A DNA stretch of 23,130 nt from a virus: UHGV virus genome UHGV-0077013. One strand, given 5' to 3'. The notes under the pieces are model-generated. The model had not been told where the DNA came from, did no database searches, and worked only from the letters and a program-made list of their open reading frames with translations. The translations under genes were made by a program, and so were the position numbers. Of this stretch, positions 6,736 through 23,130 are shown piece by piece. Position 1 is the first letter of the stretch, and every line of letters begins with the position of its first letter.

Positions 6736-6737
6736 AC

Positions 6738-6938: not shown

Positions 6939-6959
6939 GATTCTTCACCCGTCAGAACA

Positions 6960-6980: not shown

Positions 6981-6987
6981 TGAGTGA

Positions 6988-8193: not shown

Positions 8194-8207
8194 CGTATTT
8201 CTCCTGA

Positions 8208-10259: not shown

Positions 10260-10270
10260 AATTACCTCAG

Positions 10271-12004
10271 TTAAAGCGAGCGGATCCCGTAGGACTCAAT
10301 GTGATCAGACAGCGTGTCTTCTTTCTCGTACAGCATGGCTCTGCCAACCGCCATAATCAGCGCAACTGCACCATCAATTTTGTTTTCCGCCTGCTCTTTG
10401 ACGGGCTTCACCACATCATCGTTACCCGGAATGGTTTTGCCGACCACATTGCCGATACACCAGGTCATGATGGGATTGCCGTCATGATGAAAGCGCTCCG
10501 ATTCAATCGCCGCTTCCAGTTCTTTCATCGGATCGGACATGTTGGTGTAGTTCTGAATGATGGTGATGGGGTTCAGGTCTTCATCAGCAAGGTCATGCGA
10601 CAACCCGGTCGCCCCGAAGGGGTCGATGGGTGACTCACTGACCGGGCTGATTTTGTTCGCCGCTTTGGCCTCCTCGAGGATGTAGCGATAATCCACCTCT
10701 GCACCATCGGTAACGGTCAGAACGCCCATTTCCACCCATTTCTGAAAGCGTTCGGCTGTCCGGCGATCTTCATTTTTCTCGACGCTGTACACCGTGTCAT
10801 ACGGTACCCAGAAGCGCGGAGCCACACTGTAGTAATGCGTTTTACCGTCAATCTCGCGGGTATAAAGTCGCGCCATGCTGTTCATATCCAGCTTACGCGC
10901 CAGGTCAAAGGCCAGAATGCACGGCTGCCCCTCGAACTGCTCAAGGGTCAGTGATTTATCCTCGCAGCTCTGCCAGCTCACCAGGTTGAAATACGCCGAA
11001 CGCGCCGACACCCAGATATTGAGGTGTTTTGTTTTAAAGACGTTTGCCAGACGGGCGTTATTTTTCGCACGCTGCTGCTGACTTAACAAAAATTCGCGAT
11101 AAACCGACACGCCAATATTTGGATTGGCTTTTTCCAGCACCTGCGGGTCGGTCCAGTCGTCACCTTCATCAACGGTATAGATGATCCCGAACAGTTCATC
11201 GTTAGGCACCGAGCCGTTGAGCATCTCGATAACTTCCCGCCGCTTGTCGTAGCACGGCCCCTCAATGTTGTACCCGGCAGTAGTAATGGCCCACATCAGT
11301 GGCTGACGTCGCGCCCCCATCCCGGTAAGCATCGTGGTGTAAAGCGCATCGGTGGCGTGCTCGTGATATTCATCCACCACCGCACAGTGGGGTGATGATC
11401 CATCACCGGGGTTACCGATCAGCGGTTCAAACCGCGCGCCATCCTCCGGACGGTTCATGTTTGAGGCGTTAACCTCAATCCCGAACGCTTCCGTCAGCAT
11501 GGGTGTGCGTTTACACATCAGTCGCGCCGGGCGAAAGACTTCCCACGCCTGTTTCTCTGTCGTGGCACCGGAATACACTTCCGCGCCAAACTCGTTATCA
11601 CAGGCAAAACAATACAGGGCAACACCGGCAGAGATTGCTGATTTGCCGTTCTTACGGGGGATTTCGGTATACACCTCCCGGAAGCGGCGCAACCGGGTGC
11701 CTTTATTGACCCAGCCAAACGCACAGCAGATCACAAATAGCTGCCACGGCTCCAGCGTGATGGGCATCCGTTTAAATGCCCACTCACCCTTGGTGTGCGG
11801 CAACAGCTGAATAAATTTGGCGGCCCGTTCAGCCAGATCCTTGTCGAAGCGGTAACGAAACGACTTACTTTTTTCCGCCATCAGGTCATCAAGATGGCGC
11901 TGGCAGGCCTGAATCACAAACTGGCAGGCCACAATCTTTCCGCGCACGACATCCCGGGCATACTGATTGGCAGCATTTACGTTGGGGTAAGATTTCCGGC
12001 TCAT
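10271..12004 (-). CDS. terL: Terminase large subunit
   Basis: 577 aa with Walker A-like IPRKNGKS and a C-terminal nuclease-like region. Follows the small terminase gene. Confidence 0.92.
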
Positions 12005-12017
12005 GATTCGATGATTT

Positions 12018-12503
12018 TCAGATTGTCAGAAACGGGTTAGTGGCTTTCTTCTTCCCCGCCAGGCCAATCAGACGCTGTCGGCTGCTGGGGTCGAGTCCGA
12101 GCATTGCCCCCGTGCTGCTCATCTCGGACTCCTGTTCTTTTTTGGCGGTCAGCTCCGGATTTTTGACCATGCCACCCATTGCACCGGTGATGGTGTTACC
12201 CTGTCTGGCAATATTTTTCACGGCACGTCGCCAGAACTCATAGGCCACACACCACCGCTCAAGTACCGCCAGGTCAGTCACGCACAGCAGGCCCTGACCG
12301 CAGAGTTCTTTGGTTGTCAGTTGCCACATGATCGTGGCGAGAGGGAGATCTTCTTCAGCGAACCACTCCGGTGGCTCAACACCTTTGATGGGCGTAAAAA
12401 CAGGTTCATCTTTATTCAGGGCTCGCTTGCCGGGGTTTCCGGCCAGCGCCTTGCGCGCCGTTGGCTTGGGGCGACGCCCGGAACGCCCCGCCGTTCCAGC
12501 CAT
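12018..12503 (-). CDS. terS: Terminase small subunit (P27-family-like)
   Basis: N-terminus [30 protein letters not shown] is typical of P27-family small terminases. Preferred start is the ATG at 12501-12503 with an AGGAG Shine-Dalgarno; the track ORF begins at an upstream GTG (12512). Confidence 0.85.
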
Positions 12504-12713
12504 ATGCGGCACTCCTGGTTAAATTTCATTTTTCGCGGGTATAAAAAAACGATGGGGCGGGCAGTCCCGGATAGTCAGGGCTGTAGAGATTTGACTACCC
12601 CCTCCCCACTGGATTCAGGTTACTGCTATTCCGTTAATCGCTGCTTACGGGGATAGCTGCGTTGTGATTTTGACCATTCAGGTCGCCGCTATTTCCTCAC
12701 CGATTGGGTGCTA

Positions 12714-12742
12714 CGCGTGCGCGTACTTGTCCCGAAATACCA
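12714..12742 (-). promoter_or_regulatory. Conserved ~27-nt motif in the late-operon leader, also present in the early region at 19061-19089
   Basis: Plus-strand CGCGTGCGCGTACTTGTCCCGAAATACCA here versus GCGCGTGCGTACTTGTCCCGAAAACACCA at 19061-19089. Degenerate copies of the GTGCGCGTACT core occur at 18850 and 18966. Confidence 0.35.
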
Positions 12743-12753
12743 GAAACCGCCAG

Positions 12754-12775
12754 CCAGAGGATGATTTCCCTCTGG
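12754..12775 (-). terminator. Hairpin 3' of the PerC-like gene (weak terminator / attenuator candidate)
   Basis: Inverted repeat CCAGAGG-ATGATTTC-CCTCTGG. Only short U-runs follow on the transcript. Confidence 0.3.
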
Positions 12776-12779
12776 TGGT

Positions 12780-13061
12780 CTACCTTTGCCTCTTGCCGCC
12801 ATTTAACCGGAAGGCGTTACCGTTCGGTTGCGCTATCCCCATGCGGTGTTGCGTTTCGGTAACAGCTTTATGCAGGTCGCCAAAGTCCTCAACCTTCACG
12901 GGCGGGCGCTTCACGTTCTCCAGACACGTTTCACGGCGGCGCTTTATCCATTCCCGATCATCGTCCTCGGTGCATAACAGCATGACTTCCATCCATCGCG
13001 CTGCGGCGCGTCGGTACAGCCCTTTTGCTTCCAGATCCTCGGCTTTACTGTCGTTTACCAT
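12780..13061 (-). CDS. PerC-family-like small transcriptional regulator
   Basis: 93 aa; AEDLEAKGLYRRAAARWMEVM...DREWIKRRRETC resembles the PerC/Pch-type activator pattern as recalled. GGGGAG Shine-Dalgarno; sits directly upstream of the packaging operon. Confidence 0.5.
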   Translation of the reverse strand: MVNDSKAEDLEAKGLYRRAAARWMEVMLLCTEDDDREWIKRRRETCLENVKRPPVKVEDFGDLHKAVTETQHRMGIAQPNGNAFRLNGGKRQR

Positions 13062-13063
13062 GT

Positions 13064-13534
13064 TTATCTCCCCCAGAATGGCGTTTCATCGTCGAATGGT
13101 GGGCGTTGGTCAAAATCATCAGGGGTATTATATAACTCCCATCCCGGCGCGGATTGTGTTGTGTGGCCCCTGCTGGCTCCGCTTGCTTTGACTGATTCGG
13201 CCCGCTTCCCGCCGGGGCGTACCGTTCTGGCGCTGATCACGCTGTCGGCTACTACCTGATAACCTTGCTGTGTACCGCCATCCTTGCCCGTCCACTGATT
13301 GATCTGCATCGCTCCGGCAACACTGACTAAATCGCCTTTAACGTGTCCTGCCAGTGCGTCGGCCTGTTTGCCGAATGCCACCACGCCCAGCCAGAAAGTA
13401 ACCTCTCCGCCCTCTGCTGCATGGCAGGGCAGTGCCACCGCTAACCGGCCCATTGCCATGCTTGTACCGTTTGCTGTGGTACGGGTCTGGGGATCTGCCA
13501 CCAGCCGCCCGTATGCTGAAATTTGTGCTGTCAT
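13064..13534 (-). CDS. ssb: Single-stranded DNA-binding protein
   Basis: 156 aa with an OB-fold-like N-terminal half, a Gly-rich linker and an acidic C-terminal tail (DDFDQRPPFDDETPF) reminiscent of the SSB DDDIPF tip. Confidence 0.7.
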   Translation of the reverse strand: MTAQISAYGRLVADPQTRTTANGTSMAMGRLAVALPCHAAEGGEVTFWLGVVAFGKQADALAGHVKGDLVSVAGAMQINQWTGKDGGTQQGYQVVADSVISARTVRPGGKRAESVKASGASRGHTTQSAPGWELYNTPDDFDQRPPFDDETPFWGR

Positions 13535-13833
13535 AGATATTTCCTCATGTAGTCACTACCTCCGGGGATAATTTTCATTTCTTCCCTTAAAGGCCACTGC
13601 TCCGCCATTGCTGCGGTCGAGTGATTCCCGTCATCACGTCCGGCCTGTGCTGCCGTCCAGTGTGTTGCATATTCTGTAAATCCAATTTCTGCTGGCTGCC
13701 TCATCCAGTGGGCGATCATCCTCAAGGTCATTTGCAGGCTTTGGGTGTCGCCCTGTAATGCGCGTTTGTCAGTAAACCCCTTCAATGCTTCACGCTCCTG
13801 ATAGGTCATTTTCTGGCTGGTTTCTGTATTCAT
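13531..13833 (-). CDS. Hypothetical protein
   Basis: 100-aa ORF with AAGGTGG Shine-Dalgarno and an ATGA overlap with ssb. Confidence 0.5.
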   Translation of the reverse strand: MNTETSQKMTYQEREALKGFTDKRALQGDTQSLQMTLRMIAHWMRQPAEIGFTEYATHWTAAQAGRDDGNHSTAAMAEQWPLREEMKIIPGGSDYMRKYL

Positions 13834-13887
13834 TGCCCACCTTCGTTATAAGCTACCCCCCCCATAGAATCTTTTTGGGGGTGTAAT

Positions 13888-14136
13888 ATCCCTACCAATC
13901 CCTACTAACTGTCTCAGGCCACGAATGGCAAGGCTTTCAGACTGGTAGGCATTCAATTTTGTTGCCCTACATAACCCTACTTATCCCTACTAAATCACTT
14001 CAACGGCATTTTACTGCCTGTTTTATTTGGTAGGGATATGTAGGGATAAGTAGGGATAAAAATATATATCCCTACCTAGTTTAAAGCCTTGCTACGTCTG
14101 GCCTCGTCTCGTTTTTAGTAGGGCAGTAGGGATAAG
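13888..14136. repeat. Iteron array (about 11 copies of a GTAGGGATA-type unit) flanking an AT-rich spacer: putative replication origin / crr-like site
   Basis: CCCTAC cores at 13890, 13900, 13965, 13975, 13985 and 14070. GTAGGG cores at 14030, 14040, 14050, 14118 and 14126, plus a partial at 13944. Several are in 10-bp phased tandems. Opposed triplets flank a 39-bp AT-rich spacer (13991-14029). Lies immediately 3' of the primase/helicase gene. Confidence 0.7.
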
Positions 14137-14152
14137 TGCCGCCGTAAAAGTT

Positions 14153-16594
14153 TCAATCATCACTCTGCCCGCTCTCCACACCGTAAGCGCGTGGCATGAA
14201 CTCCTCAGCCTTCTCGTTATAGCCAACGTTGGTTTGCGCTCTGCCGTTAATGCTTCTCGTCAGGTAGCTGGCTCGGTACTCTTTTGCTGCTGATTTTATG
14301 GCGCGTGAAAACTTATTGACGGAAAGCGGTTTACCCAAACCGTGATACTCCATAAACGCCAGATAAAGATGATAAAGATACGTCCTCGGCTCTGGCTGGC
14401 CTGCCCATGTACCTCCGCCCATCATCATGCCTTTGGGTTCGTTCATGAAAAAAAGCGCCGCACACATATCGACAACCGGATCCGTGCCGCGTTTAACCTC
14501 TAGCGCCTCCTGCGAATCGCGCTGCTCTAGTAATAGTGCTTTTGCTTTGTTCTGGTCGGCAAAGGTGGTTAGCAGGTGGCGGATAATCACCGGGATTTCT
14601 CGCCTGATTTTTGCTGTTAAATCCGGGTCTTTGTCTGCGTCTGATACCGGGTTATTAAACGGGAATATCACGCGGCGGCGGGCAATGCCCCCGTTTCGCT
14701 CCGTGAATGTCATCGGCTCGTTATTGGTTGCCATAACAACGGCATTTATCACGGTTGTGAACTGCTTTTCATATTTCCCATCAATCTCTACCGGATCGCC
14801 GCCCGTAATGGCTTTAATCCCCGCACCCTCTCCAACATAGCGGGTCTGGTCAGGCATAATAATCAGGCTTTTTCCTACGAACTGCGCCCGTCCCCGTGCG
14901 GTGTCCAGCGTCATCATGCTACCGCTGGCGGTGTTGTGTTCACCTGCCAGCGTGGTTGCTATACTGCTGAATACGGATTTCCCACTGCCGCCCTCGCCAG
15001 TTATCTCAATGAATAGCTGCCAGTCGTGACGCTTCGCCAGCACCATAAACAAGGCTGCTTTGATACGCTCGGCCTTATGATGGTCGCCAGCCGTTGCATG
15101 ATTCAGCCAACGGGTAAAATTGGGGGCGCTGGTGGTAATATTTTCCCCCGGCGCTGGCGGGGTGTAGGTGATCCCATTGTGGTTCATCAGCCAGTTACCC
15201 GGCGAATGGGCGGAAAACGTCTGCGTGGCGAGGTCATAAACGCCGTTATCAAAACCAATCAGATCCCCGCTCCGCTCACCAATTACCGGTATTTGCAGCT
15301 TCATGGTTGCGACAACCGATTTAATCCCCTTTTCGGTGTAGTGGGCTTCGTGCTCGTCGAAAATTGCCACCATAACCCTTTCTAATTCACTGTCTGGTAG
15401 CTTCACCCATACGCCAGATTCGTAGCAGTAAACAGTGCCACTATCAGGGTTAACCGCCAACATATCCCATCGAGATGAAAGCAACCGCGCTTTCTGGCTG
15501 GCTGCCATTTGTGCAATATCTCCGACTTCGGCTTTACGGCGGGATTTACCGCCCGCAATGGCCTGTAGTTGTGGTTTCACGGCTTCCCCCTGAATCTGGT
15601 ACATCGAATCGTTAAACGCAGCCGTAGCGACTTCCAGCCCGTTTTGCTGGCGGTAGTCGTCCCAGTCGGCTTTGTAGTCTGTCGGCGGCAGCGCCACCCA
15701 GCCAGCCACGGATAATGCTGCTTTCTCTGCGGCATCTTTGCCCGTGTTCGCCTGTTCGTCCTGCTGGTGGTCGTTATCTGCGGCAATGATAATTTGCGAC
15801 TGCGGGTGTTTCCGGCGCATTACTCTGGCAACGTGGATCAGGTTCCCGGCGTCAATTGCCGACACTGTAAGCGCGTCCGGGCGCATCAGGTGAACGGACA
15901 GGGCCGTCGCCAGCCCCTCGGCAATTAATACGCTCTGCGGCTGTTCCGGTGCGTTAACGGCGTGATATGCCCCGCGCTTTGCTGAACCTGTCAGGAGTCG
16001 CTTCTCTCCCTGCGGTGTAATGGTTTGCGCTGCTGCCACTGCGCCGGATTCGTCCACCAGCTCCAGCAATAACGAACCATCCGGCATTACCGGATATTTA
16101 AACCCGGTCAGCCCTTTTGATTGCAGGTAATCAGATTCGCCCTGTGTGGCACTCTGGCGCATTCCGGCATACAGACGGGCAAACGTAGCCCTTCGCTGCT
16201 CTGCGTCCTCTGCTGCCTGTTTCTGGCGCTCCTGCTCACGCTGCTGGCGGTCAGCTTCCAGTTGCTCCCTTCTATGGCTCGCTGCCACCGGATCGGTTTC
16301 CGCTGCCCGGTAATCAATACCCAGCACATCAGCGGCAAGCCTCGCCGCTTCTGTGGTGGCGCAGTTGTTCACCTTCTTAATCAGGTCTAAACCGTCACCA
16401 GCGCCACACTGATTGCAGATAAAGCTACCGCGCCCGTTGTCGTCGAATCTGAAACGGTCTTTTCCACCACATGCAGGGCATGGAGAATGGCGGCGCGATG
16501 AATCAGGCACGTCGATAGACAATCCAGCCAGCACATAAGGCCAGCGCCCGGCGGCGGCACTGGTCACTTCGCGGATAAGGTCGATATTACGCAT
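14153..16594 (-). CDS. P4 alpha-like primase/helicase (zinc-binding primase domain plus P-loop NTPase)
   Basis: N-terminal zinc ribbon CPACGGKDRFRFDDNGRGSFICNQCGAGDG, a TOPRIM-like IIAADNDH motif, and Walker A GEGGSGKS. Preferred start is the ATG at 16592-16594, coupled (ATGCGTAA) to the upstream ORF; the track ORF extends to 16651. Confidence 0.9.
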   Translation of the reverse strand: MRNIDLIREVTSAAAGRWPYVLAGLSIDVPDSSRRHSPCPACGGKDRFRFDDNGRGSFICNQCGAGDGLDLIKKVNNCATTEAARLAADVLGIDYRAAETDPVAASHRREQLEADRQQREQERQKQAAEDAEQRRATFARLYAGMRQSATQGESDYLQSKGLTGFKYPVMPDGSLLLELVDESGAVAAAQTITPQGEKRLLTGSAKRGAYHAVNAPEQPQSVLIAEGLATALSVHLMRPDALTVSAIDAGNLIHVARVMRRKHPQSQIIIAADNDHQQDEQANTGKDAAEKAALSVAGWVALPPTDYKADWDDYRQQNGLEVATAAFNDSMYQIQGEAVKPQLQAIAGGKSRRKAEVGDIAQMAASQKARLLSSRWDMLAVNPDSGTVYCYESGVWVKLPDSELERVMVAIFDEHEAHYTEKGIKSVVATMKLQIPVIGERSGDLIGFDNGVYDLATQTFSAHSPGNWLMNHNGITYTPPAPGENITTSAPNFTRWLNHATAGDHHKAERIKAALFMVLAKRHDWQLFIEITGEGGSGKSVFSSIATTLAGEHNTASGSMMTLDTARGRAQFVGKSLIIMPDQTRYVGEGAGIKAITGGDPVEIDGKYEKQFTTVINAVVMATNNEPMTFTERNGGIARRRVIFPFNNPVSDADKDPDLTAKIRREIPVIIRHLLTTFADQNKAKALLLEQRDSQEALEVKRGTDPVVDMCAALFFMNEPKGMMMGGGTWAGQPEPRTYLYHLYLAFMEYHGLGKPLSVNKFSRAIKSAAKEYRASYLTRSINGRAQTNVGYNEKAEEFMPRAYGVESGQSDD

Positions 16595-16928
16595 GGTTGC
16601 CTCCTGCCACGGTCGCGCCCATGTCTTTAACCATGCTTTGCCATATCTCACGCCCGACGTCAGTCAATCCGTCATTAGTGACGCAACGCTCAAGAAGCTC
16701 GACCCCCACGGTTTCCCACTGCGGGTAGGACACTTTCATGGCTGCCAGTGTGTAGCTATCGATCAGGCTGCGAACGCCTTTTACTCCATTGACGATTTCC
16801 ACACGGACGGCGAGGCCGTCCGCATCAACCATGAAATAGTCACCGCCGCTGGTGGAGGTAATGTGGTTATACAGTGCCGACGCATACTTATTCGCCAGCG
16901 CATTCAGTCTGAAATTTTTAGTAATCAT
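16587..16928 (-). CDS. Hypothetical early protein
   Basis: 113-aa ORF whose stop overlaps the primase start. Confidence 0.5.
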   Translation of the reverse strand: MITKNFRLNALANKYASALYNHITSTSGGDYFMVDADGLAVRVEIVNGVKGVRSLIDSYTLAAMKVSYPQWETVGVELLERCVTNDGLTDVGREIWQSMVKDMGATVAGGNHA

Positions 16929-16937
16929 GTCGCCCCC

Positions 16938-17564
16938 TCAGTGCGGCAGCGGCATTTCAGGCCAGCCGTTTTCATCCAGTTCAGCTATAAAGCTGTTGTG
17001 AAGTTCAGCAAGCGTTTCACGCCCGAACGGGGTCAACTCGCCGCGCTCCGTGTCGATCATGGCCTGATAAAAAACAATGGCGTTCGCTGTTCCCTGCTCA
17101 ATGCCGTAGCGCTCAACCATTGCGCCCTCCATGTTGTTAGCCATCGCCAGACGTTCCGCGAACGGGTAAACCACAATCCCCGCCGTGCCATTGGAGTAAA
17201 TCGCCACCTGCGATGAAGTGCCGTCAGACTCAGTTACCGTGGTTGTGCCGTTTTCGCGCTTCATCTCAGAAATGAACGTCGCAGCAATCAGCCAGCGCCA
17301 CATAGTGACGTTATGCTGCGCGGTGAAGTCGAACCAGCCACGCGCCCCGCCATCAGCAACGGCAAAATGAATGGCGTATCCGATATCTGGCTTATCGTCG
17401 TACTCTCCGGCGTCAAGGCCGTTCACGGCGCTCTCGTAGCTGATAAGAGCAACCTGCTCATATCCCCCGGCATCATTGCGGGTCATGATATTGACGCCGT
17501 GCGGTGTGGCTTCGGCGTGTAATAAGTCGGCATTTCCCGATTTAATGGTCGGTGCGTTGCTCAT
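16938..17564 (-). CDS. Hypothetical early protein
   Basis: 208-aa ORF with an ATGA overlap to the upstream gene. Confidence 0.55.
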   Translation of the reverse strand: MSNAPTIKSGNADLLHAEATPHGVNIMTRNDAGGYEQVALISYESAVNGLDAGEYDDKPDIGYAIHFAVADGGARGWFDFTAQHNVTMWRWLIAATFISEMKRENGTTTVTESDGTSSQVAIYSNGTAGIVVYPFAERLAMANNMEGAMVERYGIEQGTANAIVFYQAMIDTERGELTPFGRETLAELHNSFIAELDENGWPEMPLPH

Positions 17565-17824
17565 GCGCTGCCCTCCGCATCAATTCTGGCTATATCGACA
17601 ATCGTCAGGACTTTACTCAGCCAGCAATACGCGATGGCTGCTTGCTCAACTTCGAGGAGTGGTAATAAATCGGTCATAACGTGAGCCAGCCCATTGCGGG
17701 CGCGGGTCATGCGTTCTGCTGTTCGGTCCGCCAGCGTAAAATCATCCGGGTATGCTTCTTTACGAGATAGCATCGATTCGGCTTCCAGATCTGCCGGGTG
17801 GCGATAGATGGTATTTATGTTCAT
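17561..17824 (-). CDS. Hypothetical early protein
   Basis: 87-aa ORF with ATGA overlaps on both sides. Confidence 0.5.
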   Translation of the reverse strand: MNINTIYRHPADLEAESMLSRKEAYPDDFTLADRTAERMTRARNGLAHVMTDLLPLLEVEQAAIAYCWLSKVLTIVDIARIDAEGSA

Positions 17825-18135
17825 TTGCCCGCCCTCCCTTTGGCTTCTTTTTCACTGATTGAGCGCAAGAATGCGGCGTTTGCAGCGCTATCGTTCAGCG
17901 CCAGCGCAACTTCTCCGATATGTCCCAGCATTGCGCCTAATCTGTACATATCAGCCTTAGCGCTTTCCTCCGGGTAGCCATCGCTACCAGCCGCCCAGAA
18001 CATGAGGCTACCAATGGCACTTACGCCCAGCATTAAATCATCCACGGCATCACTGGCGCAGCTCTCAATTCCTTTCAGATCATCAGGCGTACAACCATCA
18101 AATTTGCAGGACACTAAATCGTTATACATGCTCAT
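17821..18135 (-). CDS. Hypothetical early protein
   Basis: 104-aa ORF with ATGA overlaps on both sides. Confidence 0.5.
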   Translation of the reverse strand: MSMYNDLVSCKFDGCTPDDLKGIESCASDAVDDLMLGVSAIGSLMFWAAGSDGYPEESAKADMYRLGAMLGHIGEVALALNDSAANAAFLRSISEKEAKGRAGK

Positions 18136-18311
18136 GCCGCCACCTCACGAACGCGGGTAATCTGGATGTGGGAAAGGCGTTCATTTCTGGCCTGATTTAG
18201 CGCCTCAGCTTTGGCGCTGATCGCGCTGCGGGCGTCAACGATATAAACGAACTCGACTAATTCGCCGCTCCGGGCGGTGGCGCATCCTGCAACACGGAAG
18301 TAATTAAGCAT
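18132..18311 (-). CDS. Hypothetical small early protein
   Basis: Preferred ATG at 18309-18311 (MLNYFRVAG...), overlapping the upstream stop as CATGCTTAA. The track ORF starts at an upstream TTG (18341). Confidence 0.45.
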   Translation of the reverse strand: MLNYFRVAGCATARSGELVEFVYIVDARSAISAKAEALNQARNERLSHIQITRVREVAA

Positions 18312-18495
18312 GTGCGCCCCCTGTGCGAATACGTCCGGCAAAAAAGCAAACGTGATCCCGCGCCAGAATGCGGCGGGCTTCCTGCTCAGTCTCTGCGGCG
18401 ATATGGTGAATTTTGACGGTAATTGTCGGCATATCGCGGCGAACTGCGGCGATAATCCAGATAAATTGCGGTTTTTGGGTAGGGGTAGTAGCCAT
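18304..18495 (-). CDS. Hypothetical small early protein
   Basis: Strong CAGGAGG Shine-Dalgarno 8 nt before the ATG at 18493-18495 (MATTPTQKPQFIWIIAAVRR...). The longer 119-aa track ORF is probably an over-extension. Confidence 0.5.
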   Translation of the reverse strand: MATTPTQKPQFIWIIAAVRRDMPTITVKIHHIAAETEQEARRILARDHVCFFAGRIRTGGAHA

Positions 18496-18653
18496 TATGG
18501 CAGCCTCCTGTAACTGGGATTTATTCCCACCACCGGAAACGCCAATTTCACTGGTGGTGAGCTGAACAGGGTTGGCGTAACCGGCGTTACAGGAAACCGG
18601 CGCGGATCGCTCCGCCCCCATCCAGCCCACCATTACTTTTTGAGCAATATGGG

Positions 18654-19253
18654 CTATAGCCATATCGCTGGGAAAGAGGTGTGCAGATGCGAGGACACAA
18701 AAAAGACGCTCGGCGCGTCATGTGTCGCCTGTAACATTATCAGGACGCCAATCCCGGCACCAGATTTTGCTGGTGCGCTATAACCATAAACCGGGTTGGC
18801 GATAGTCGGCAAGCCCTTTTTTATGGACTCCAGAAACTCACCTTCGCGCGTGCGCGTACTGTTGCATAAATTCCCTGCATCTAGTGGTGATGTCAGAAAA
18901 ATCTTCCCGCCTCGTGTAGTGATGATGGGAAAATCTTCCTCGCGTAGTGACCCCCAATAAATCTTCGTGCGCGTACTGGTCTCGAAACTCTCCTCGTCAC
19001 CACGACGAGAAAATGAGGAGCTGGCATTAGCTGGCACTGTTATGCCAGCTTCGCATTCATGCGCGTGCGTACTTGTCCCGAAAACACCAAGATTTGTAAA
19101 GATCTGGCGGTGGCAAATGTCAGGTTTTGACAGGTTCCAAACGTCGCTATTTGTCGCAATCTGGCGGCGGGCTGCTTTGCTCCAGACGTTAACATTTGCA
19201 TACATCAGGCCAGCCAGGGGAAAGGCTTTATTCTGGATGGCGGCATTAAGCAT
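18654..19253 (-). CDS. Questionable ORF spanning the repeat-dense region
   Basis: 199 codons; the ATG at 19251-19253 overlaps the antirepressor stop (CATGCTTAA). The translation is low-complexity and the DNA is full of direct repeats and hairpins, so it may be non-coding or encode only a short N-terminal peptide. Confidence 0.2.
   Translation of the reverse strand: MLNAAIQNKAFPLAGLMYANVNVWSKAARRQIATNSDVWNLSKPDICHRQIFTNLGVFGTSTHAHECEAGITVPANASSSFSRRGDEESFETSTRTKIYWGSLREEDFPIITTRGGKIFLTSPLDAGNLCNSTRTREGEFLESIKKGLPTIANPVYGYSAPAKSGAGIGVLIMLQATHDAPSVFFVSSHLHTSFPAIWL
18846..19171. repeat. Repeat-dense region between the antirepressor gene and the small early genes
   Basis: Three degenerate tandem units (AAATCTTC...CGYGTAGTGA) at 18897, 18930 and 18958. 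GTGCGCGTACT-type cores at 18850, 18966 and 19063. A 23-bp direct repeat ATTTGTxxxxATCTGGCGGxGG at 19092-19114 and 19149-19171. Hairpins at 19028-19049 and 18993-19009. Confidence 0.5.
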
Positions 19254-20079
19254 GATTAGCCCCCAGATGTTTAGCTAACCAGCGCTGAGAGAGGCGGATT
19301 AGCTCGGCTTTACGCAGGTCATATCCCATACCCATATCAATCAGCGTAATGTTGGTACTCTCCAGGTAGGCGAGGTGTTCCAGTTGCCCTGCGTTCATGC
19401 TGTCCCGTGGTTCGCCAGTAATGTCATTTGCCTGCGCCCACTGCTTCGCCGTCATGCCACCCAGCACGATACGGGCGATCATGTTGCTCTCGTTGCTGTA
19501 GTGGCGAGCCTGCGTCTGTTTACCCTGTTCTGCGCGGGCGCTTTCCAGCGCTACGCACATCGGTTTAAACAGGTTGGCGGCACTGATACGGGCTTTTAGC
19601 TGGCGACGATAGCGGGCGGCGATTTCAGGCACGCTACGCTGTAATTCTTCCTCGCACTGGATGAAATAACGGCGGATAGCGCGGCCCTGTTCAGTGCGTT
19701 CGATCATTGCCAGTTCTTTCGCCATTCCGACACTTAACAGATAGTCTTTGCCGGGTCTGCCAGAGTGCTTAATCTTGCTGTAAGCCGCGCCATTCGGGCT
19801 TTTCCCCAGATTTGGGGAAATTGTTTTATGGACTGAGTAATCGTGCCCAATGGTGAAGTCATATTCAGAGATGCGATCAGTGATCCATGTAGAGAAGTCT
19901 TTTCCCACGCCCAACGCTTTGTGTAACGCTTTTGCGCTAACAATATTGGTTTCACGCCCACCGATATGACCAGGAATAACCGGGACAATTGTGGCAAATT
20001 CATTACCGTTAATTGTTCCCTGATAGGCGTTCAGATGAGGGGCGGCCTCAGAAATTAATCTGCTTTTTTCGATGTTCAT
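19246..20079 (-). CDS. Antirepressor (AntA-like N-terminal and KilA-C/ANT-like C-terminal domains)
   Basis: 277 aa. ...KDFSTWITDRISEYDFTIGHDY... resembles the AntA domain and ...LSVGMAKELAMIERTEQGRAIRRYFIQCEE... the KilA-C/ANT domain. Confidence 0.7.
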   Translation of the reverse strand: MNIEKSRLISEAAPHLNAYQGTINGNEFATIVPVIPGHIGGRETNIVSAKALHKALGVGKDFSTWITDRISEYDFTIGHDYSVHKTISPNLGKSPNGAAYSKIKHSGRPGKDYLLSVGMAKELAMIERTEQGRAIRRYFIQCEEELQRSVPEIAARYRRQLKARISAANLFKPMCVALESARAEQGKQTQARHYSNESNMIARIVLGGMTAKQWAQANDITGEPRDSMNAGQLEHLAYLESTNITLIDMGMGYDLRKAELIRLSQRWLAKHLGANHA

Positions 20080-20091
20080 TTTCAGTCTCCG

Positions 20092-20526
20092 TTAGGCGGC
20101 GGTGAGATTGTCCGGGTATAGGTTGAGAATGTCGGCAATTTCAGGCTGAGAAAGTCCCTGATAGCCGCCAGCGTCGGCGTTATGGTTCACAAGCCGAATA
20201 ACTTTTAGAACGTCACCGCGCCCGGTAAAGCGATAGCGTAAATGTGACCCTATCCCGTCGGGGTTCTTTTCGTCTATACGCTCAAGCTGAATATCAAGCC
20301 TGCGCTCTAACTCGCTGGCGTAGTTCCTTCCAGATGAAAGGCGGCAATATTGCAGAATGTCATTTTCTGTCCATCCCTCTATACCAGTACGCAGCATATA
20401 GACGCGGGCGCGGTGTTTCTTTGGGGTACGCTTAGGTACTTGTACCGGGCTGGTGGTCGGCGTAATATCAGACGTGCGAATATCTGAGTTAGCCGCCTGC
20501 TGTACGGGGCGGTTTTTCTTTTTCAT
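20092..20526 (-). CDS. Hypothetical protein with basic N-terminus
   Basis: 144-aa ORF whose start overlaps the alpA-like stop (TAATG). Confidence 0.5.
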   Translation of the reverse strand: MKKKNRPVQQAANSDIRTSDITPTTSPVQVPKRTPKKHRARVYMLRTGIEGWTENDILQYCRLSSGRNYASELERRLDIQLERIDEKNPDGIGSHLRYRFTGRGDVLKVIRLVNHNADAGGYQGLSQPEIADILNLYPDNLTAA

Positions 20527-20744
20527 TACGCCACCTTTCCCCGGCGCTCCGCCAGCCAGTTGTGAATCTCAACCGCATCAAACGCAGTCACGTTATCTGT
20601 TAGCTTCACTGGGCGTGGAAGAGTGCCATTTTTAACCCATCTATCAATAGTAGGCAGTGAAACACCTAGCAATTCCGGCATGCGAAAGCGACGGATGTAT
20701 CCAGTTGTTGGGATAGCTGATGATGCTGGCTTGTGTGCTGTCAT
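20526..20744 (-). CDS. alpA: AlpA-family transcriptional regulator / excisionase-like protein
   Basis: 72 aa with a helix-turn-helix pattern ...MPELLGVSLPTIDRWVKNGTLPRPVKL...AFDAVEIHNWLAERR, typical of the AlpA family. Confidence 0.75.
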   Translation of the reverse strand: MTAHKPASSAIPTTGYIRRFRMPELLGVSLPTIDRWVKNGTLPRPVKLTDNVTAFDAVEIHNWLAERRGKVA

Positions 20745-20825
20745 ATCTCTAGTAACCTCTCTGATAGCTCATGAAGTTACTTAAAGTTTAGTGGTTGCCC
20801 ATACAGTATTTCTATTAAGACTAGA

Positions 20826-20877
20826 ATCTATTGAAAGAAATTATAAATCTATTGAAAAAATACTGATCCACTGAAAG
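20826..20877. promoter_or_regulatory. Three direct repeats (ATCYAYTGAAA) about 80-130 bp upstream of alpA: candidate operator/promoter element
   Basis: atctattgaaag at 20826-20837, atctattgaaaa at 20847-20858 and atccactgaaag at 20866-20877, spaced about 20 bp apart in a very AT-rich intergenic region. Confidence 0.35.
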
Positions 20878-21214
20878 ATTGCAAATGCAGGTGGGATAAT
20901 TATTTTCTTTATTTTCAATTAGTTACCAGTTTAAAAAATCATTGTTTTATCAAAGAGTTATATCTTTCATCGTCATTCATCATGTTTTTACATTTCCTTT
21001 TATCTTTTATTATTCAATTGGTTGAGTCGGTTTATAATGGCTCATGATGGCTTAAAATGCTAATGATAGCTGGCGTATCTTTTAGAGATGGGGTGATTAC
21101 AGATGAACTAAGCCGAACAGATATAGCAATGGCTAGGCATAGAATTATCTATGCTGGTGGAGATGGGTAAACAGGTAATGCCCCGCCATTGCTTTGGAGG
21201 GGCGTGAAAAGTGA

Positions 21215-21865
21215 TTAGTCGAGATCGTGGACAGCTAATAAAGCCCGTGAGATTTTTTCTAGGAATGTGGCTTTTGCTATTCCTTTATGGGATATCCCTT
21301 CATCCTTGATTAAGGTTTCTATGTCACGGTATATAGCTGTGCGATTAGGTTTCCCATTTTGGGTGTAGGAAGATGAGCCTGATTTTTTTATCAGCAGATG
21401 TACTATCAACCCCATCATTTTCATTGTCCCGTTTTCCTCATCCTGCTTTCTATGCTGCCCACGTCCGCTGCGGTTGGTTTCTTTGATGTAGTTTACTAAC
21501 TGGAGTCCTCCAAGGTTTCGGGCTTTTTCTTCCCAGCCCTTGGTGCCACGCAAATCATCAATCGCTTCTGATATTTTCTGAACAATTATTTCTGGTGTAT
21601 TTGTGTCAATAAATGGGTAAGAAGCTAAGAAAATATCAAGGGCATGGCAAGGCTCGTCTTTACTAGTTTTTTCACCTCTGTACACCTTGATAGCTCTGGC
21701 AAGATGAGTTCTGACAAAATCGACATATTCGAAATTTTCCTCAGGCACATCGCTAATGCGCATAGATGGGTTTAGGCCAGCCAAGGCCACAGCCATTTCA
21801 TGAGGGGTAATCGATACAGATGAACAAAGCCGTTCGATTGGCGATTTTCTCAAGATGTTGTTCAC
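21215..21865 (-). CDS. Hypothetical low-GC cargo protein translationally coupled to the integrase
   Basis: 216-aa ORF with a GTG start at 21863-21865 overlapping the int stop (ATGTGA) and a GGAGG Shine-Dalgarno 5 nt upstream. A spot count gives about 38% GC. No recognisable domain. Confidence 0.55.
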   Translation of the reverse strand: MNNILRKSPIERLCSSVSITPHEMAVALAGLNPSMRISDVPEENFEYVDFVRTHLARAIKVYRGEKTSKDEPCHALDIFLASYPFIDTNTPEIIVQKISEAIDDLRGTKGWEEKARNLGGLQLVNYIKETNRSGRGQHRKQDEENGTMKMMGLIVHLLIKKSGSSSYTQNGKPNRTAIYRDIETLIKDEGISHKGIAKATFLEKISRALLAVHDLD

Positions 21866-23130
21866 ATTTGCCTCCGGGCTTTATCGAATGGCGTTACGTT
21901 GTAGTCTTTTCCGCTTTCCAGTGCCACCAGCAAATCACACCACTGCGCCAGCGCCGCTTTACGCTCATCAAAATACTGGTGACGGTTATAGATACCTTCC
22001 ACGCCTTTAATTTTGTGGTTGAGGCATCTTTCAGCCACTACGGGATCAACGCCCAGCGCGGCTAAATGGGTGCGGGCTGTGCGCCGGAAGTCGTGAATCG
22101 TGAAATTAGGCACATCCGGCATTTCAGCGCGAACCTTAGCCAGTGCTACGGGTAAAGTGCTTTCCTGAATATGTGGGATCATTCTGTTTTGCATCTTTCT
22201 GGCTGGCAGTACCCATGCGCTGTTGCATGAGAACGTTTTAAGCTCTCTCAGCCATTCGACGGCTGGCGGTGCTAATGGGATGTCTATAGCGTCGCCGTTT
22301 TTACTGCGTTCTTCTGGTAAGTGCCAGATGCCTTTGTCCAGGTCGAACTCCTCCCAGCGGGCGGCGCATAACTCCATTTTGCGGACGCATAACGCTAACA
22401 GTAATTTGAACGTGATTTCGTTCTGGCGACTGAATCCCTTAGCTGTGCGCATAGCCTGAAACAGTCGGATTAGTTCGCCACGTGTTAACCAGCGGTCGCG
22501 GGAAACTTCTTTCCCTCCGGCGTCTGCCACCTCAAAGGCTGAACACGGGTTAATCTCCAGTGCGTGCCGCTTAATGCCGTAGTCAAATATGCGGCGTGTC
22601 CAGCGCAGAACGTCCGTTGCTATGGTCGGCGCTCCACGGTCAACAATACTTTTCAGCATGTCGTCGATATGGCGCGGCTTCACGTCCTCCACCTTCATGC
22701 TGCCAATGCATGGGTTTATATCTTTGTCGATACGGCGGCGGAGTATATCGGGGTGCTTCCAGCGCGGGAGGATCTGACGCTCAAAGTATTCAGCGGCAAG
22801 CTCTGAAACGCGCATAGCGTTCTTCTCTGCTTCCATCTTCGCCAGTGCTTCGGTTTTGCGCTTCTGCTTCTCTCCTGCAACGTCATAGCCCAACGCAACG
22901 CGAGCCGATAGCTCTTTGGCTGTCTCTCTGGCCTTTGATAGTGATAGCTCGGCATATGAGCCGATAACCATTGCTCGCTGCTTACCTGCGAATTTATAGC
23001 GAAAGCGCCAGAAAGGGACTGTGTAGTTTTTGGGGTAGCAAATATAAAGGCCGTTGCCATCGGCCCTTCCTTCAAATCTATCTCCGGCCTTTATCCATGC
23101 GCGGATCTGCATGTCTGTAATCTTTGGCAT
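21862..23130 (-). CDS. int: Tyrosine integrase, P4-like
   Basis: 422 aa with an arm-binding-type N-terminus (MPKITDMQIRAWIKAGDRF...) and a C-terminal catalytic region (HDFRRTARTHLAALG...GIYNRHQY). The ATG is the last triplet of the window. Confidence 0.92.
   Translation of the reverse strand: MPKITDMQIRAWIKAGDRFEGRADGNGLYICYPKNYTVPFWRFRYKFAGKQRAMVIGSYAELSLSKARETAKELSARVALGYDVAGEKQKRKTEALAKMEAEKNAMRVSELAAEYFERQILPRWKHPDILRRRIDKDINPCIGSMKVEDVKPRHIDDMLKSIVDRGAPTIATDVLRWTRRIFDYGIKRHALEINPCSAFEVADAGGKEVSRDRWLTRGELIRLFQAMRTAKGFSRQNEITFKLLLALCVRKMELCAARWEEFDLDKGIWHLPEERSKNGDAIDIPLAPPAVEWLRELKTFSCNSAWVLPARKMQNRMIPHIQESTLPVALAKVRAEMPDVPNFTIHDFRRTARTHLAALGVDPVVAERCLNHKIKGVEGIYNRHQYFDERKAALAQWCDLLVALESGKDYNVTPFDKARRQM

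What the first reader, a model, noticed from the sequence alone, without database searches (positions are those of the whole stretch)
16587..18495. Six tightly coupled small genes of unknown function ahead of the primase
Consecutive ATGA and ATGCTTAA-type stop/start overlaps indicate a co-translated operon of unrecognised proteins (about 59-208 aa) in the slot where phages and satellites keep host-takeover, anti-defence or helper-manipulation genes. Two junctions (18304-18311 and 19246-19253) reuse the same CATGCTTAA overlap, and both downstream ORFs begin MLN, which may indicate local duplication.
Basis: inference. Interest (0 to 1): 0.45.

Follow-up and report, generated by a model that had tools for sequence, protein, structure and literature searches.

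The report
P4-type satellite early operon
The six overlapping small genes are the front of the early (replication) operon of a P4/PICI-type phage satellite of E. coli; a well-known kind of antisense RNA masks the ribosome site of the first gene, so the layout is ordinary for this family, although five of the six proteins still have no known function.

Summary
On the minus strand, six ORFs (63, 59, 104, 87, 208 and 113 aa) run from 18495 to 16587. They join each other and the primase by 8-, 4-, 4-, 4-nt overlaps, a 9-nt gap and an 8-nt overlap, and each start has its own Shine-Dalgarno.

The first gene is not unknown. It is an Icd-like protein, 40% identical to P4 Kil.

Just upstream lie a C4/CI-type antisense RNA and an isrK/seqA-type target element. 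The RNA's two loops complement sites upstream and at the icd ribosome-binding site, and all three positions co-vary across 18 relatives including P4. The block is therefore the counterpart of the P4 left operon (kil/eta, epsilon, orf151, cnr, alpha) inside a PICI-like island.

The 208-aa protein is a probable distant relative of P4 ORF106 (DUF5375). The other four are uncharacterised families. The 113-aa protein has a confident predicted fold with no structural neighbour. Gene content of the slot is mosaic among relatives.

The "MLN duplication" idea is wrong, because ATG-CTT-AAx forces M-L-N. The 19246-19253 junction joins AntA to a frameshifted eta-like ORF.

This is a new member of a known kind, of low to moderate interest.

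The parts
20526..20744 (-). AlpA/Vis-like HTH gene. It is the first cistron of the gap-free alpA->primase gene string (context).
   Evidence: Pfam Phage_AlpA 7e-6. 32% identical to P4 ORF88. 1-nt overlap with the next ORF.
19246..20079 (-). AntA/Bro-type antirepressor-family gene. Its stop overlaps the eta-like start by 8 nt (CATGCTTAA, 19246-19253).
   Evidence: Pfam AntA 4e-21. Junction sequence.
18654..19253 (-). N-terminal piece (199 aa) of an eta-like long ORF. A 1-nt deletion in the T-run 18699-18704 cuts it off here. PGAP calls it 'ash family protein'.
   Evidence: Adding one T gives a continuous 317-aa ORF ending at the icd stop. Ten E. coli genomes 99.7% identical have the extra base and a single ORF. 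Relatives have 236-378 aa ORFs. Pfam Phage_ASH matches P4 Eta aa 22-146.
18783..18812 (-). Inferred constitutive internal promoter, positional equivalent of P4 PLE: TTGCCG, 18 nt, TATGGT.
   Evidence: The sequence lines up with the P4 PLE region and sits 6 nt upstream of the isrK 5' end. It is conserved in the alignment of relatives. It scores 8/12 to consensus, below the scan threshold, so one search does not list it. Inference only.
18699..18776 (-). isrK / P4 seqA-type leader RNA element. It carries target sites a1 (18745-18751) and b1 (18728-18735) and an intrinsic terminator (stem 18705-18719, T-run 18699-18704).
   Evidence: Rfam isrK 75.0 bits, gathering score 50. c4-a1b1 43.8 bits, gathering score 46.7. 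Terminator scan. Motif positions.
18550..18637 (-). C4 / P4 CI-type antisense immunity RNA. Loop b' is CCUGUAAC (18586-18593). Single-stranded a' is ACGCCAA (18572-18578).
   Evidence: Rfam C4 76.9 bits, gathering score 45, full length. The same model hits the P4 CI RNA. Covariation.
18504..18545 (-). Downstream target region: a2 (18539-18545), b2 (18507-18514), overlapping the Shine-Dalgarno AGGAGG (18504-18509) of icd.
   Evidence: 95.5% of cells paired with C4 a'/b' across 18 sequences, 13 of 15 pairs covarying.
18304..18495 (-). Icd-like / P4 Kil-like gene (63 aa). It is the first translated cistron downstream of the immunity RNA and is nested in the 119-aa ORF 18304-18663.
   Evidence: NCBIfam NF033153 71.8 bits, cut-off 25. 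40% identity over 57 aa to P4 Kil. dN/dS 0.08-0.48.
18132..18311 (-). o59: 59-aa basic protein of unknown function, a rare cassette.
   Evidence: 8-nt overlap upstream and 4-nt overlap downstream. Homologues in only 4-5 of 80 loci. No Pfam, NCBIfam or PHROG match.
17821..18135 (-). o104: 104-aa acidic protein (pI 4.4) of unknown function, a rare cassette. The NCBI name 'ubiquinol-cytochrome C reductase' is spurious.
   Evidence: phrog_6805 and phrog_15327, both of unknown function. 62 homologue clusters in E. coli and Klebsiella, none with a Pfam domain. In Proteus a homologue sits directly upstream of the primase with an 8-nt overlap.
17561..17824 (-). o87: 87-aa acidic protein of unknown function, semi-conserved in the slot.
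   Evidence: Homologues in 12-13 loci. dN/dS 0.14-0.35. No family match.
16938..17564 (-). o208: 208-aa acidic protein (net charge -18). It is the most conserved gene of the slot and a probable distant relative of P4 ORF106 (DUF5375) with an N-terminal extension.
   Evidence: phrog_1515. 551 homologues and 119 clusters at 50% identity. hhalign against P4 ORF106: probability 85%, E 6e-6, residues 84-194 against 9-101. No Pfam hit. AF2 model is poor, pLDDT 52. Also found in early-left operons of temperate phages.
16587..16928 (-). o113: 113-aa protein of unknown function. In all 12 relatives it is joined to the primase start by an 8-nt overlap.
14153..16594 (-). P4-family primase-helicase, the last cistron of the coupled chain.
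   Evidence: TIGR01613 and phrog_2249 4e-148. 38% identical to P4 alpha over 812 aa.
13886..14104 (.). Iteron cluster (ATCCCTAC units in direct and inverted arrangement) just downstream of the primase. Probable replication origin.
   Evidence: the repeat finder families D2/D10 and inverted repeats I1, I2, I5, I8, I12. The origin function is inferred from position.

Best explanation
The six ORFs are the promoter-distal part of the early, replication-directed operon of a PICI-type satellite. Its control region is of the P4 / P1-immI type.

Proposed mechanism:
1. An internal constitutive promoter inside a long eta-like ORF transcribes an isrK/seqA-type leader, a C4/CI-type RNA and then the icd/kil-like gene.
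2. The processed C4 RNA pairs through two single-stranded segments (a', b') with a1/b1 in the leader and with a2/b2, which overlaps the icd Shine-Dalgarno.
3. That pairing blocks icd translation. By analogy with P1 and P4, it also lets transcription terminate.
4. Every downstream cistron (o59, o104, o87, o208, o113, primase) starts within or next to the stop of the one before. The translational on/off state of icd is therefore passed down the chain to the primase. The element replicates only when immunity is overridden, for example by transcription from the alpA-side promoter with ribosomes reading through eta.

The proteins: Icd/Kil is a cell-division inhibitor or killer type. o208 is probably a Cnr/ORF106-like protein acting with the primase. 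o59, o104, o87 and o113 are exchangeable early accessory proteins of unknown function.

Shown here: gene structure, RNA genes, complementarity with covariation, homology to P4 Kil, and mosaicism of the slot. Inferred: the promoter, termination, the effect of coupling, and all protein functions.
For: - Gene string and junctions.
- Rfam: C4 (76.9 bits) and isrK (75 bits) sit directly upstream of icd. The same two models hit the P4 CI and seqA regions. c4-a1b1 falls just under threshold.
- Complementarity: a1/b1, a'/b' and a2/b2 are placed exactly as in P1/P4, with b2 overlapping the AGGAGG of icd.
- Three-way covariation in 18 sequences including P4: 97.4% and 95.5% of cells paired, 13 of 15 pairs changed on both sides, 0 of 500 shuffles as good, slid controls 31-49%.
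- Icd-like NF033153 at 71.8 bits. 40% identity to P4 Kil, and 41% over 112 aa to the old P4 'cI ORF'.
- P4 kil->epsilon uses the same 8-nt overlap.
- A long eta-like ORF spanning the RNA genes is conserved in relatives and restored here by one T.
- Synteny alpA / Bro-type gene / eta+RNAs / small genes / primase matches the published description of Gram-negative PICIs and P4 (PMC10111431).
- Coupling through an AUGA overlap is experimentally required in the related Gifsy-1 isrK-orf45-anrP module (PMC4825925).
- o208 against P4 ORF106: hhalign probability 85%. cnr lies between epsilon and alpha in P4-like elements (PMC8628076).
Against: - There are no transcript, ribosome or phenotype data for this element.
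- The PLE-like promoter matches consensus at only 8 of 12 positions and was not reported by the scan.
- No Rho-dependent termination site could be located.
- In this copy the eta-like ORF is frameshifted (T6 instead of T7). This could weaken read-through control, or it could be a sequencing error.
- The o208-DUF5375 link fails Pfam's own threshold, and the o208 model is poor.
- o208 homologues in temperate phages are not next to a primase.
Confidence: 0.8

Rival explanations
1. The five unknown proteins are dedicated accessory factors of the primase-helicase, such as copy-number control (like P4 Cnr), origin loading or helicase regulation. On this view the block is simply the replication module.
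For: - o208 is a probable homologue of P4 ORF106/DUF5375.
- o208 and o113 lie next to the primase and are kept even where the replicase is a DUF927-type enzyme.
- o113 is joined to the primase by an 8-nt overlap in 12 of 12 relatives.
- o87, o208 and o113 are under purifying selection.
Against: - At least 11 unrelated families occupy the position directly upstream of related primases, and many relatives lack every one of the five.
- o208 homologues in phages CharmingMan and phiP27 sit in the repressor-to-int early-left operon, away from the replicase.
- o59 and o104 are present in only 4-5 of 80 loci.
Confidence: 0.3
2. The small genes are host-takeover, anti-defence or helper-manipulation cassettes. 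One could, for example, act as the functional analogue of P4 epsilon (helper derepression), or be an acidic DNA-mimic-like inhibitor.
For: - The slot is the same as P4 epsilon/orf151.
- Gene content is mosaic between genera and within E. coli: only 35 of 597 matching genomes keep at least 80% of the block.
- o104, o87 and o208 are acidic, with pI 4.4-4.8.
- They are expressed early, under immunity control.
- o113 has a confident fold with no known neighbour.
Against: - No sequence or profile similarity to epsilon (PF25738), orf151 or any characterised protein.
- No PADLOC, Pfam or PDB hits.
- Acidity alone is weak evidence.
- No anti-defence library was available to search.
Confidence: 0.25
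3. The repeated CATGCTTAA junction and the shared MLN start reflect a local duplication of a gene start.
For: An identical 9-mer occurs at 18303-18311 and 19245-19253, and both downstream ORFs begin M-L-N.
Against: - ATG-CTT-AAy necessarily encodes M-L-N.
- 60-nt flanks are 22-30% identical, which is random.
- o59 and the 199-aa ORF have no significant BLAST alignment.
- A third junction, ATGCGTAA, gives MRN for the primase, and P4 has GTGCGTAA at kil->epsilon.
- The second ORF is the start of the eta-like gene, an unrelated family.
Confidence: 0.02
4. Some of the small ORFs are not genes but chance ORFs in a GC-rich leader.
For: o59 and o87 match no PHROG, Pfam or NCBIfam family. Too few substitutions among close E. 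coli relatives to measure selection on o59 and o104.
Against: - dN/dS is 0.08-0.48 for icd, o87, o208 and o113.
- Full-length protein homologues across genera exist for all five.
- Every start has a Shine-Dalgarno and an overlap.
- PGAP calls all of them.
Confidence: 0.03

Closest known systems
Satellite phage P4 left (early) operon and its RNA immunity: PLL/PLE, eta/kil nested genes, CI RNA with seqA/seqC, epsilon, orf151, cnr (ORF106), alpha
   Same: - Gene order is the same: AlpA/Vis-like gene, long eta-type ORF containing the seqA-type and CI-type RNA genes, a 63-65 aa Kil/Icd protein as its terminal part, small early genes, then the primase-helicase.
- Kil is 40% identical and alpha 38% identical.
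- The 8-nt RTGCKTAA overlap follows kil in both.
- P4 aligns column for column with the a/b target scheme.
- o208 is a probable ORF106 relative.
   Different: - No homologues of epsilon, orf151, sid, delta or psu.
- An AntA/Bro gene and a 144-aa ORF lie between alpA and eta.
- There are five small genes rather than three, four of them unrelated to anything in P4.
- The eta ORF is frameshifted in this copy.
- The origin iterons differ (ATCCCTAC).
Phage P1/P7 immI operon: c4 antisense RNA, icd, ant1/2
   Same: - A C4-family RNA (Rfam RF01695) has a' and b' complementary to a1/b1 upstream and a2/b2 at the icd ribosome-binding site.
- The first gene is icd-like.
- Downstream genes are translationally coupled to it.
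- The P1 mechanism (translational repression of icd leading to Rho-dependent termination before ant) is cited from my own knowledge of Citron & Schuster 1990 and Biere et al. 1992.
   Different: - What follows icd is a chain of small unknown genes and a primase, not an antirepressor. The AntA-type gene lies upstream instead.
- The element is a satellite island, not a plasmid prophage.
Gram-negative PICIs with four zones (Integration, Bro, Replication, Late), PMC10111431
   Same: - int, alpA, a Bro-network gene (AntA, Ash/eta), then primase and SSB, all co-oriented, in an island of about 12 kb between dinD and yicC.
- C4 and isrK hits inside the Bro gene are already reported for such PICIs.
   Different: - The small genes between the Bro zone and the primase are not described in that work.
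- In the window the Late zone is replaced by 12.6 kb of a prophage's late genes (see Noticed in passing).
Salmonella Gifsy-1 isrK-orf45-anrP module, PMC4825925
   Same: An isrK-family leader RNA with terminator is followed by a small ORF whose translation is coupled through an overlapping stop/start (AUGA) to the next gene. Coupling was shown experimentally there.
   Different: In Gifsy-1 the downstream gene is an antiterminator (AnrP), and IsrK acts as an activator in trans. Here the downstream genes are icd, the small ORFs and the primase.

Membership tests
C4/CI antisense-RNA immunity module (P1 immI / P4 immunity type) | An RNA with the C4 fold: a long closing helix, two hairpins and an internal single-stranded segment. 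| tested here: met
   Rfam RF01695 76.9 bits against gathering score 45, model positions 1-87 of 87. The same model hits the P4 CI RNA.
C4/CI antisense-RNA immunity module (P1 immI / P4 immunity type) | Two segments of the RNA (a', b') are complementary to a target pair upstream (a1/b1, seqA) and to a target pair downstream (a2/b2, seqC). | tested here: met
   7 + 8 bp at both sites in the window. Across 18 relatives 97.4% and 95.5% of cells pair, with 13 of 15 pairs covarying, against 31-49% for slid controls.
C4/CI antisense-RNA immunity module (P1 immI / P4 immunity type) | The downstream target overlaps the ribosome-binding site of the first gene, which is icd/kil-like. | tested here: met
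   b2 (18507-18514) overlaps AGGAGG (18504-18509), and the ATG is at 18495. NF033153 scores 71.8 bits against cut-off 25. 40% identical to P4 Kil.
C4/CI antisense-RNA immunity module (P1 immI / P4 immunity type) | The RNA represses translation and causes termination in vivo, and confers immunity specificity. | not testable with these tools
   This needs reporter or Northern experiments. The many covarying loop/target variants among relatives fit distinct specificities.
P4-like satellites in the strict sense (int, alpA, epsilon, alpha, sid, delta, psu) | Presence of the capsid-size and late-control genes sid, delta and psu, and of epsilon. | tested here: not met
   tblastn of P4 Sid, Delta, Psu, Gop, Beta and cII finds nothing in the window or in the identical island. 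Epsilon and orf151 are absent. PGAP annotates none.
Gram-negative PICI | A co-oriented int, alpA, Bro-type gene(s) and primase(+SSB) module in a chromosomal island of about 10-15 kb. | tested here: met
   Annotated identical island between dinD and yicC in E. coli GDSC2239PM. Pfam, NCBIfam and PHROG assignments. Zone scheme from PMC10111431.
Gram-negative PICI | Induction, packaging and transfer by a helper phage. | not testable with these tools
   The only indirect hint is a 98-bp segment identical to the region upstream of terS in a prophage of the same genome.
DUF5375 / P4 ORF106 (Cnr) family, for o208 | Match to Pfam PF17345 above its gathering score. | tested here: not met
   No Pfam hit for o208 or for 48 diverse homologues. 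P4 ORF106 itself scores 210.9 bits.
DUF5375 / P4 ORF106 (Cnr) family, for o208 | Remote homology detectable by profile comparison, and the same position upstream of the primase. | tested here: inconclusive
   - hhalign of a 49-sequence profile against P4 ORF106: probability 85%, E 6e-6, 92 columns.
- An o208 profile finds the DUF5375 homologue of L048 at 1.7e-6.
- phrog_5991 gives 1.5e-3.
- The position fits in satellites but not in temperate phages.
Icd-like host cell division inhibitor (NF033153), for the 63-aa ORF | Score above the NCBIfam cut-off. | tested here: met
   71.8 bits against cut-off 25.

The most novel reading that the evidence does not exclude
One or more of the four orphan families (o113, o87, o104, o59) is a new kind of satellite early effector, for example the functional replacement of P4 epsilon that derepresses or otherwise hijacks the helper prophage, or an inhibitor of a host defence. 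o113 has a confidently predicted helical-plus-hairpin fold (pLDDT 93) with no neighbour in PDB or BFVD, and it is always fused to the primase start by an 8-nt overlap. That would make it a new protein class acting at the satellite-helper-host interface.
Probability: 0.25. Interest if true: 0.55.

Novelty: new member of a known kind. Interest (0 to 1): 0.27.

Why it matters
The locus shows that the P4/P1 type of antisense-RNA immunity, nested eta/kil genes included, governs the replication operon of a widespread PICI-like island family in Enterobacterales. About 11% of complete E. coli genomes (597 of 5,426) carry some part of this block.

It also gives a clear rationale for the unbroken chain of overlapping cistrons. 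One RNA-masked ribosome site can gate six proteins and the replicase.

In practice it corrects several misleading annotations: the 'ash family protein' split ORF, 'ubiquinol-cytochrome C reductase' and 'nicotinic acetylcholine receptor subunit beta'. It also defines a small set of conserved but uncharacterised early proteins (o87, o208, o113) as the obvious candidates for helper or replication control in these satellites.

Nothing here overturns current understanding.

Tried and rejected
- **Direct family searches.** Pfam, NCBIfam, PHROGs and PADLOC were run on all six ORFs. Only Icd-like and PHROGs of unknown function were returned.
- **Similarity to P4 proteins.** BLASTP and hhalign of the five unknown families against P4 epsilon, orf151 and ORF106, and against each other, gave nothing except o208 against ORF106.
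- **Solved structures.** PDB sequence and profile searches for o208, o113 and o104 gave only chance-level hits.
- **Structure prediction.**
  - The o208 model is unusable (pLDDT 52).
  - The AFDB library was unavailable.
- **Duplication hypothesis.** Rejected by comparing the junction flanks.
- **199-aa ORF as a seventh coupled small gene.** Rejected. It is the N-terminal part of a frameshifted eta-like ORF.
- **Primary literature.** Forti et al. 1999 (PMC94026) is not held. The P4 eta/kil mechanism is therefore cited through PMC10111431 and from my own knowledge.
- **Promoter scan.** It did not detect the PLE-like promoter. That promoter rests on positional homology only.

Full report
**1. 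Observation**

The region is coding on the minus strand. Six ORFs run from 18495 to 16587:

| ORF | Coordinates | Length |
|---|---|---|
| icd/kil-like | 18304-18495 | 63 aa |
| o59 | 18132-18311 | 59 aa |
| o104 | 17821-18135 | 104 aa |
| o87 | 17561-17824 | 87 aa |
| o208 | 16938-17564 | 208 aa |
| o113 | 16587-16928 | 113 aa |

The P4-family primase starts at 16594.

The junction distances are -8 (ATGCTTAA), -4, -4, -4, +9 and -8 (ATGCGTAA). Every start codon has a GGAGG-like motif 5-10 nt upstream, inside the preceding gene. No promoter-like or terminator-like site lies on that strand within the block. PGAP annotates the same genes in an E. coli chromosome that is 100% identical over 16300-20800.

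The ORFs are real genes:
- dN/dS against relatives is 0.09-0.35 for o113, 0.15-0.23 for o208, 0.14-0.35 for o87 and 0.08-0.48 for icd.
- o104 has 62 full-length homologue clusters.
- o59 has homologues in four or five other loci. Close E. coli relatives carry too few substitutions to measure selection on o59 and o104.

It is not special to this stretch, though. The whole alpA-to-primase string (12 ORFs, 6.6 kb) has no gap longer than 12 nt.

**2. The MLN duplication idea**

The two CATGCTTAA junctions share only the overlap itself.
- ATG-CTT-AAy must read M-L-N.
- The 60-nt flanks are 22-30% identical, and the two downstream proteins do not align.
- A third junction of the same geometry (ATGCGTAA, giving MRN) joins o113 to the primase.
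- P4 itself has GTGCGTAA between kil and epsilon.

The 19246-19253 junction does not belong to a small gene. It couples the AntA-family gene to a 199-aa ORF that PGAP calls 'ash family protein'.

**3.

Rfam finds a full-length C4 antisense RNA at 18550-18637 (76.9 bits, gathering score 45). It also finds an isrK-type RNA at 18699-18776 (75 bits, gathering score 50). Both are on the minus strand, immediately upstream of the 63-aa gene. The 'a1,b1 target of C4' model scores 43.8 bits, just under its threshold. The same two models hit the CI RNA and the seqA region of P4. Published work states that C4 and isrK detect CI and seqA relatives, and that these occur in Gram-negative PICIs (PMC10111431).

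The complementary segments in the window are:

| Segment | Sequence | Coordinates |
|---|---|---|
| C4 hairpin loop b' | CCUGUAAC | 18586-18593 |
| C4 internal segment a' | ACGCCAA | 18572-18578 |
| b1, inside isrK | GUUACAGG | 18728-18735 |
| a1, inside isrK | UUGGCGU | 18745-18751 |
| a2 | UUGGCGU | 18539-18545 |
| b2 | GUUACAGG | 18507-18514 |

b2 overlaps the AGGAGG (18504-18509) that serves the ATG at 18495.

I aligned 18 homologous regions: the window, 16 loci from other Enterobacterales and Aeromonas, and P4. The loops and both target sets change together.
- 97.4% of cells pair for the upstream set and 95.5% for the downstream set.
- 13 of 15 pairs show changes on both sides.
- 0 of 500 shuffles reach the observed score.
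- Sliding the 3' partner by 1-3 columns gives 31-49% paired.

This is strong comparative evidence that the RNA-target interactions are functional and come in many specificities.

**4. The first gene is known, and it is nested in an eta-like ORF**

The 63-aa protein matches NCBIfam 'host cell division inhibitor Icd-like' (71.8 bits, cut-off 25). It is 40% identical over 57 residues to P4 Kil.

In most relatives this gene is the terminal part of a long ORF of 236-378 aa that runs through both RNA genes. That is the eta/kil nested-gene arrangement of P4.

In the window the long ORF is split into 199 aa and 119 aa, overlapping at ATGGCTATAG (18654-18663). The T-run of the isrK terminator has six T instead of seven. 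Adding one T restores a 317-aa ORF from the AntA-coupled ATG to the icd stop. Ten other complete E. coli genomes are 99.7% identical over this stretch, carry one extra base and are annotated with a single ORF.

Pfam Phage_ASH matches P4 Eta residues 22-146 and the corresponding parts of the window ORFs. This is the segment co-linear with the seqA and CI RNA genes, not epsilon, which is PF25738.

**5. Synteny with P4 and family assignment**

Homologies to P4:
- AlpA-like gene: 32% identical to P4 ORF88.
- Eta/Kil region: 40-41% identical.
- Primase: 38% identical to alpha over 812 aa.
- Integrase: 25% identical.

No homologue of epsilon, orf151, sid, delta or psu exists in the window or in the identical chromosomal island.

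The island sits between dinD and yicC. Its order is int, a hypothetical gene, alpA, a 144-aa ORF, antA, eta with the RNAs, the small genes, primase, a 100-aa ORF, SSB and PerC. This fits the Integration/Bro/Replication/Late scheme of Gram-negative PICIs (PMC10111431).

It works like P4 and P1 immI in its control region. It is a PICI-type element, not a P4-like satellite in the strict sense.

**6. The five unknown proteins**

None hits Pfam, NCBIfam, PADLOC or PDB sequences. PHROGs gives only families of unknown function for o113, o208 and o104.

*o208*
- It is the most widespread: 551 homologues, and 119 clusters at 50% identity.
- A 49-sequence profile aligns residues 84-194 to residues 9-101 of P4 ORF106 (DUF5375), with hhalign probability 85% and E 6e-6.
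- Weaker independent signs agree: a BLAST hit over residues 140-172, phrog_5991, and an o208 profile that finds the DUF5375 homologue in a Yersinia locus.
- In P4-like elements the cnr gene lies between epsilon and alpha (PMC8628076). From memory, cnr is ORF106 (Terzano et al. 1994). On that basis o208 may be a Cnr-like modulator of the primase.
- Pfam's own threshold is not met.
- The AF2 model is poor, with pLDDT 52.
- Homologues 30-38% identical in temperate phages (CharmingMan, phiP27, Stx and Klebsiella phages) lie in the repressor-to-integrase early-left operon, not beside a replicase.

*o113*
- It has 126 homologues, all in Enterobacterales.
- Its AF2 model is very confident, with pLDDT 93.4 and pTM 0.86.

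*Charge.* o104, o87 and o208 are acidic, with pI 4.4-4.8.

**7. Variability of the slot**

Among 79 loci recovered with the primase, presence of each family is:

| Family | Loci |
|---|---|
| o208 | about 20 |
| icd | 18 |
| o113 | 13 |
| o87 | 9-13 |
| o59 | 4-5 |
| o104 | 4-5 |

Other small ORFs take their places.

The position directly upstream of the primase is filled by at least 11 unrelated families. o113 is joined by an 8-nt overlap in 12 of 12 cases.

In E. coli, 597 of 5,426 complete genomes match part of the 1.9-kb block, but only 35 keep at least 80% of it. A common variant reads eta-64-87-73-200-113-123 followed by a TOPRIM/DUF927 replicase, again with overlapping junctions.

The slot is thus mosaic, with a semi-conserved core (o87, o208, o113) and rarer cassettes (o59, o104). 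Coupling is preserved whatever the content.

**8. Mechanism**

Shown by the sequence and comparisons:
- the gene chain;
- the RNA genes;
- the complementarities at the icd ribosome-binding site, with covariation;
- homology to P4 Kil, Eta and alpha.

Inferred from P4, P1 and Gifsy-1:
- A weak constitutive promoter lies inside eta (TTGCCG, 18 nt, TATGGT, at 18812-18783). It is the positional equivalent of PLE, and the scan did not detect it.
- This promoter makes the leader and the C4 RNA.
- C4 pairs with a1/b1 and a2/b2, blocks icd translation and allows termination. The small genes and the primase stay silent.
- Transcription from the alpA side, with ribosomes translating eta across the RNA region, overrides this.
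- The overlapping stop/start sites pass translation from icd to the primase.

In the related Gifsy-1 isrK-orf45-anrP module, such coupling through AUGA was shown to be required (PMC4825925). The P1 and P4 termination mechanisms are cited from my own knowledge and through PMC10111431, because the primary P4 paper is not held.

**9. Verdict**

The finding is real but ordinary. It is a new member of a known kind, a PICI-type satellite with a P4/P1-type RNA-controlled early operon. One of the six genes is already named, one has a probable P4 counterpart, and four are orphan families.

The anti-defence or helper-manipulation reading is neither supported nor excluded. The duplication idea is refuted. 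Interest is low to moderate. The most promising lead is o113, which has a confident novel fold and is always fused to the primase start. The o87-o208-o113 core is the second lead.

Noticed in passing
window 1-12607 versus 12510-23130: The window is a composite. Bases 1-12607 are late genes of a sheath-tailed prophage (tape measure, sheath, capsid, portal, TerL, TerS), 99.8% identical to a distant place (1.43 Mb) of E. coli GDSC2239PM. Bases 12510-23130 are the dinD-yicC island of the same strain (99.96%). The two share the 98 bp at 12510-12607, just upstream of terS, which is possibly a cos region. None of 5,426 complete E. coli genomes has the joined arrangement. It is therefore an assembly or extraction chimera, a rare recombinant, or an 'elongated PICI'.
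   Followed up: partly
window 18699-18704 (T-run) and 18654-18663: A 1-nt deletion in the homopolymer of the isrK terminator (T6 instead of T7) splits the eta-like ORF into the 'ash family protein' and 'Icd-like protein' of PGAP. Ten E. coli genomes 99.7% identical have T7 and one ORF. This is either a private mutation or a homopolymer sequencing error. The two pieces overlap as ATGGCTATAG, which could allow re-initiation.
   Followed up: yes
window 18472-18785; P4 (L002) 8168-8767: Pfam Phage_ASH (PF10554) models the middle of Eta, the stretch co-linear with the seqA and CI RNA genes, and not P4 epsilon, which is PF25738. Its amino-acid conservation may be driven largely by the RNA. A published census of P4-like elements used PF10554 as its 'epsilon' marker.
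   Followed up: partly
window 18849-18864, 18966-18981, 19062-19077 and 12716-12731 (minus strand): A motif of about 22 nt, TTTCGRGACMAGTACGCGCACG, occurs three times inside the N-terminal part of the eta-like ORF and once in the non-coding stretch between the cos-like segment and perC. That is 4 matches against 0.31 expected. Copies lie 50-90 nt upstream of isrK in at least 11 relatives. It may be a regulator binding site; its function is unknown.
   Followed up: partly
window 13886-14104: A dense cluster of ATCCCTAC iterons in direct and inverted orientation (80-nt arms, 73% complementary) lies between the primase stop and the next gene. It is a probable replication origin.
   Followed up: no
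window 17821-18135 and 17561-17824: The NCBI product names for homologues of o104 ('ubiquinol-cytochrome C reductase') and o87 ('nicotinic acetylcholine receptor subunit beta') have no domain support and appear to be propagated misnomers.
   Followed up: partly
L077 3876-3944 and L063 1365-1433; window 20745-21214: Relatives carry the Rfam int-alpA RNA motif between int and alpA. The window instead has a 216-aa ORF (21215-21865) and a 470-nt gap there. No int-alpA match was found in the window, even at E up to 1.
   Followed up: no
window versus L003 (E. coli M9682-C1), about 18634-18688: The closest E. coli relatives (97-98% identical across the operon) carry a different immunity specificity (b' CUCUGAUU instead of CCUGUAAC) and lack a 42-nt spacer between isrK and C4. 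The window's immunity region resembles that of a Klebsiella locus (L077). The immunity cassette is therefore exchanged independently of the flanking genes.
   Followed up: partly
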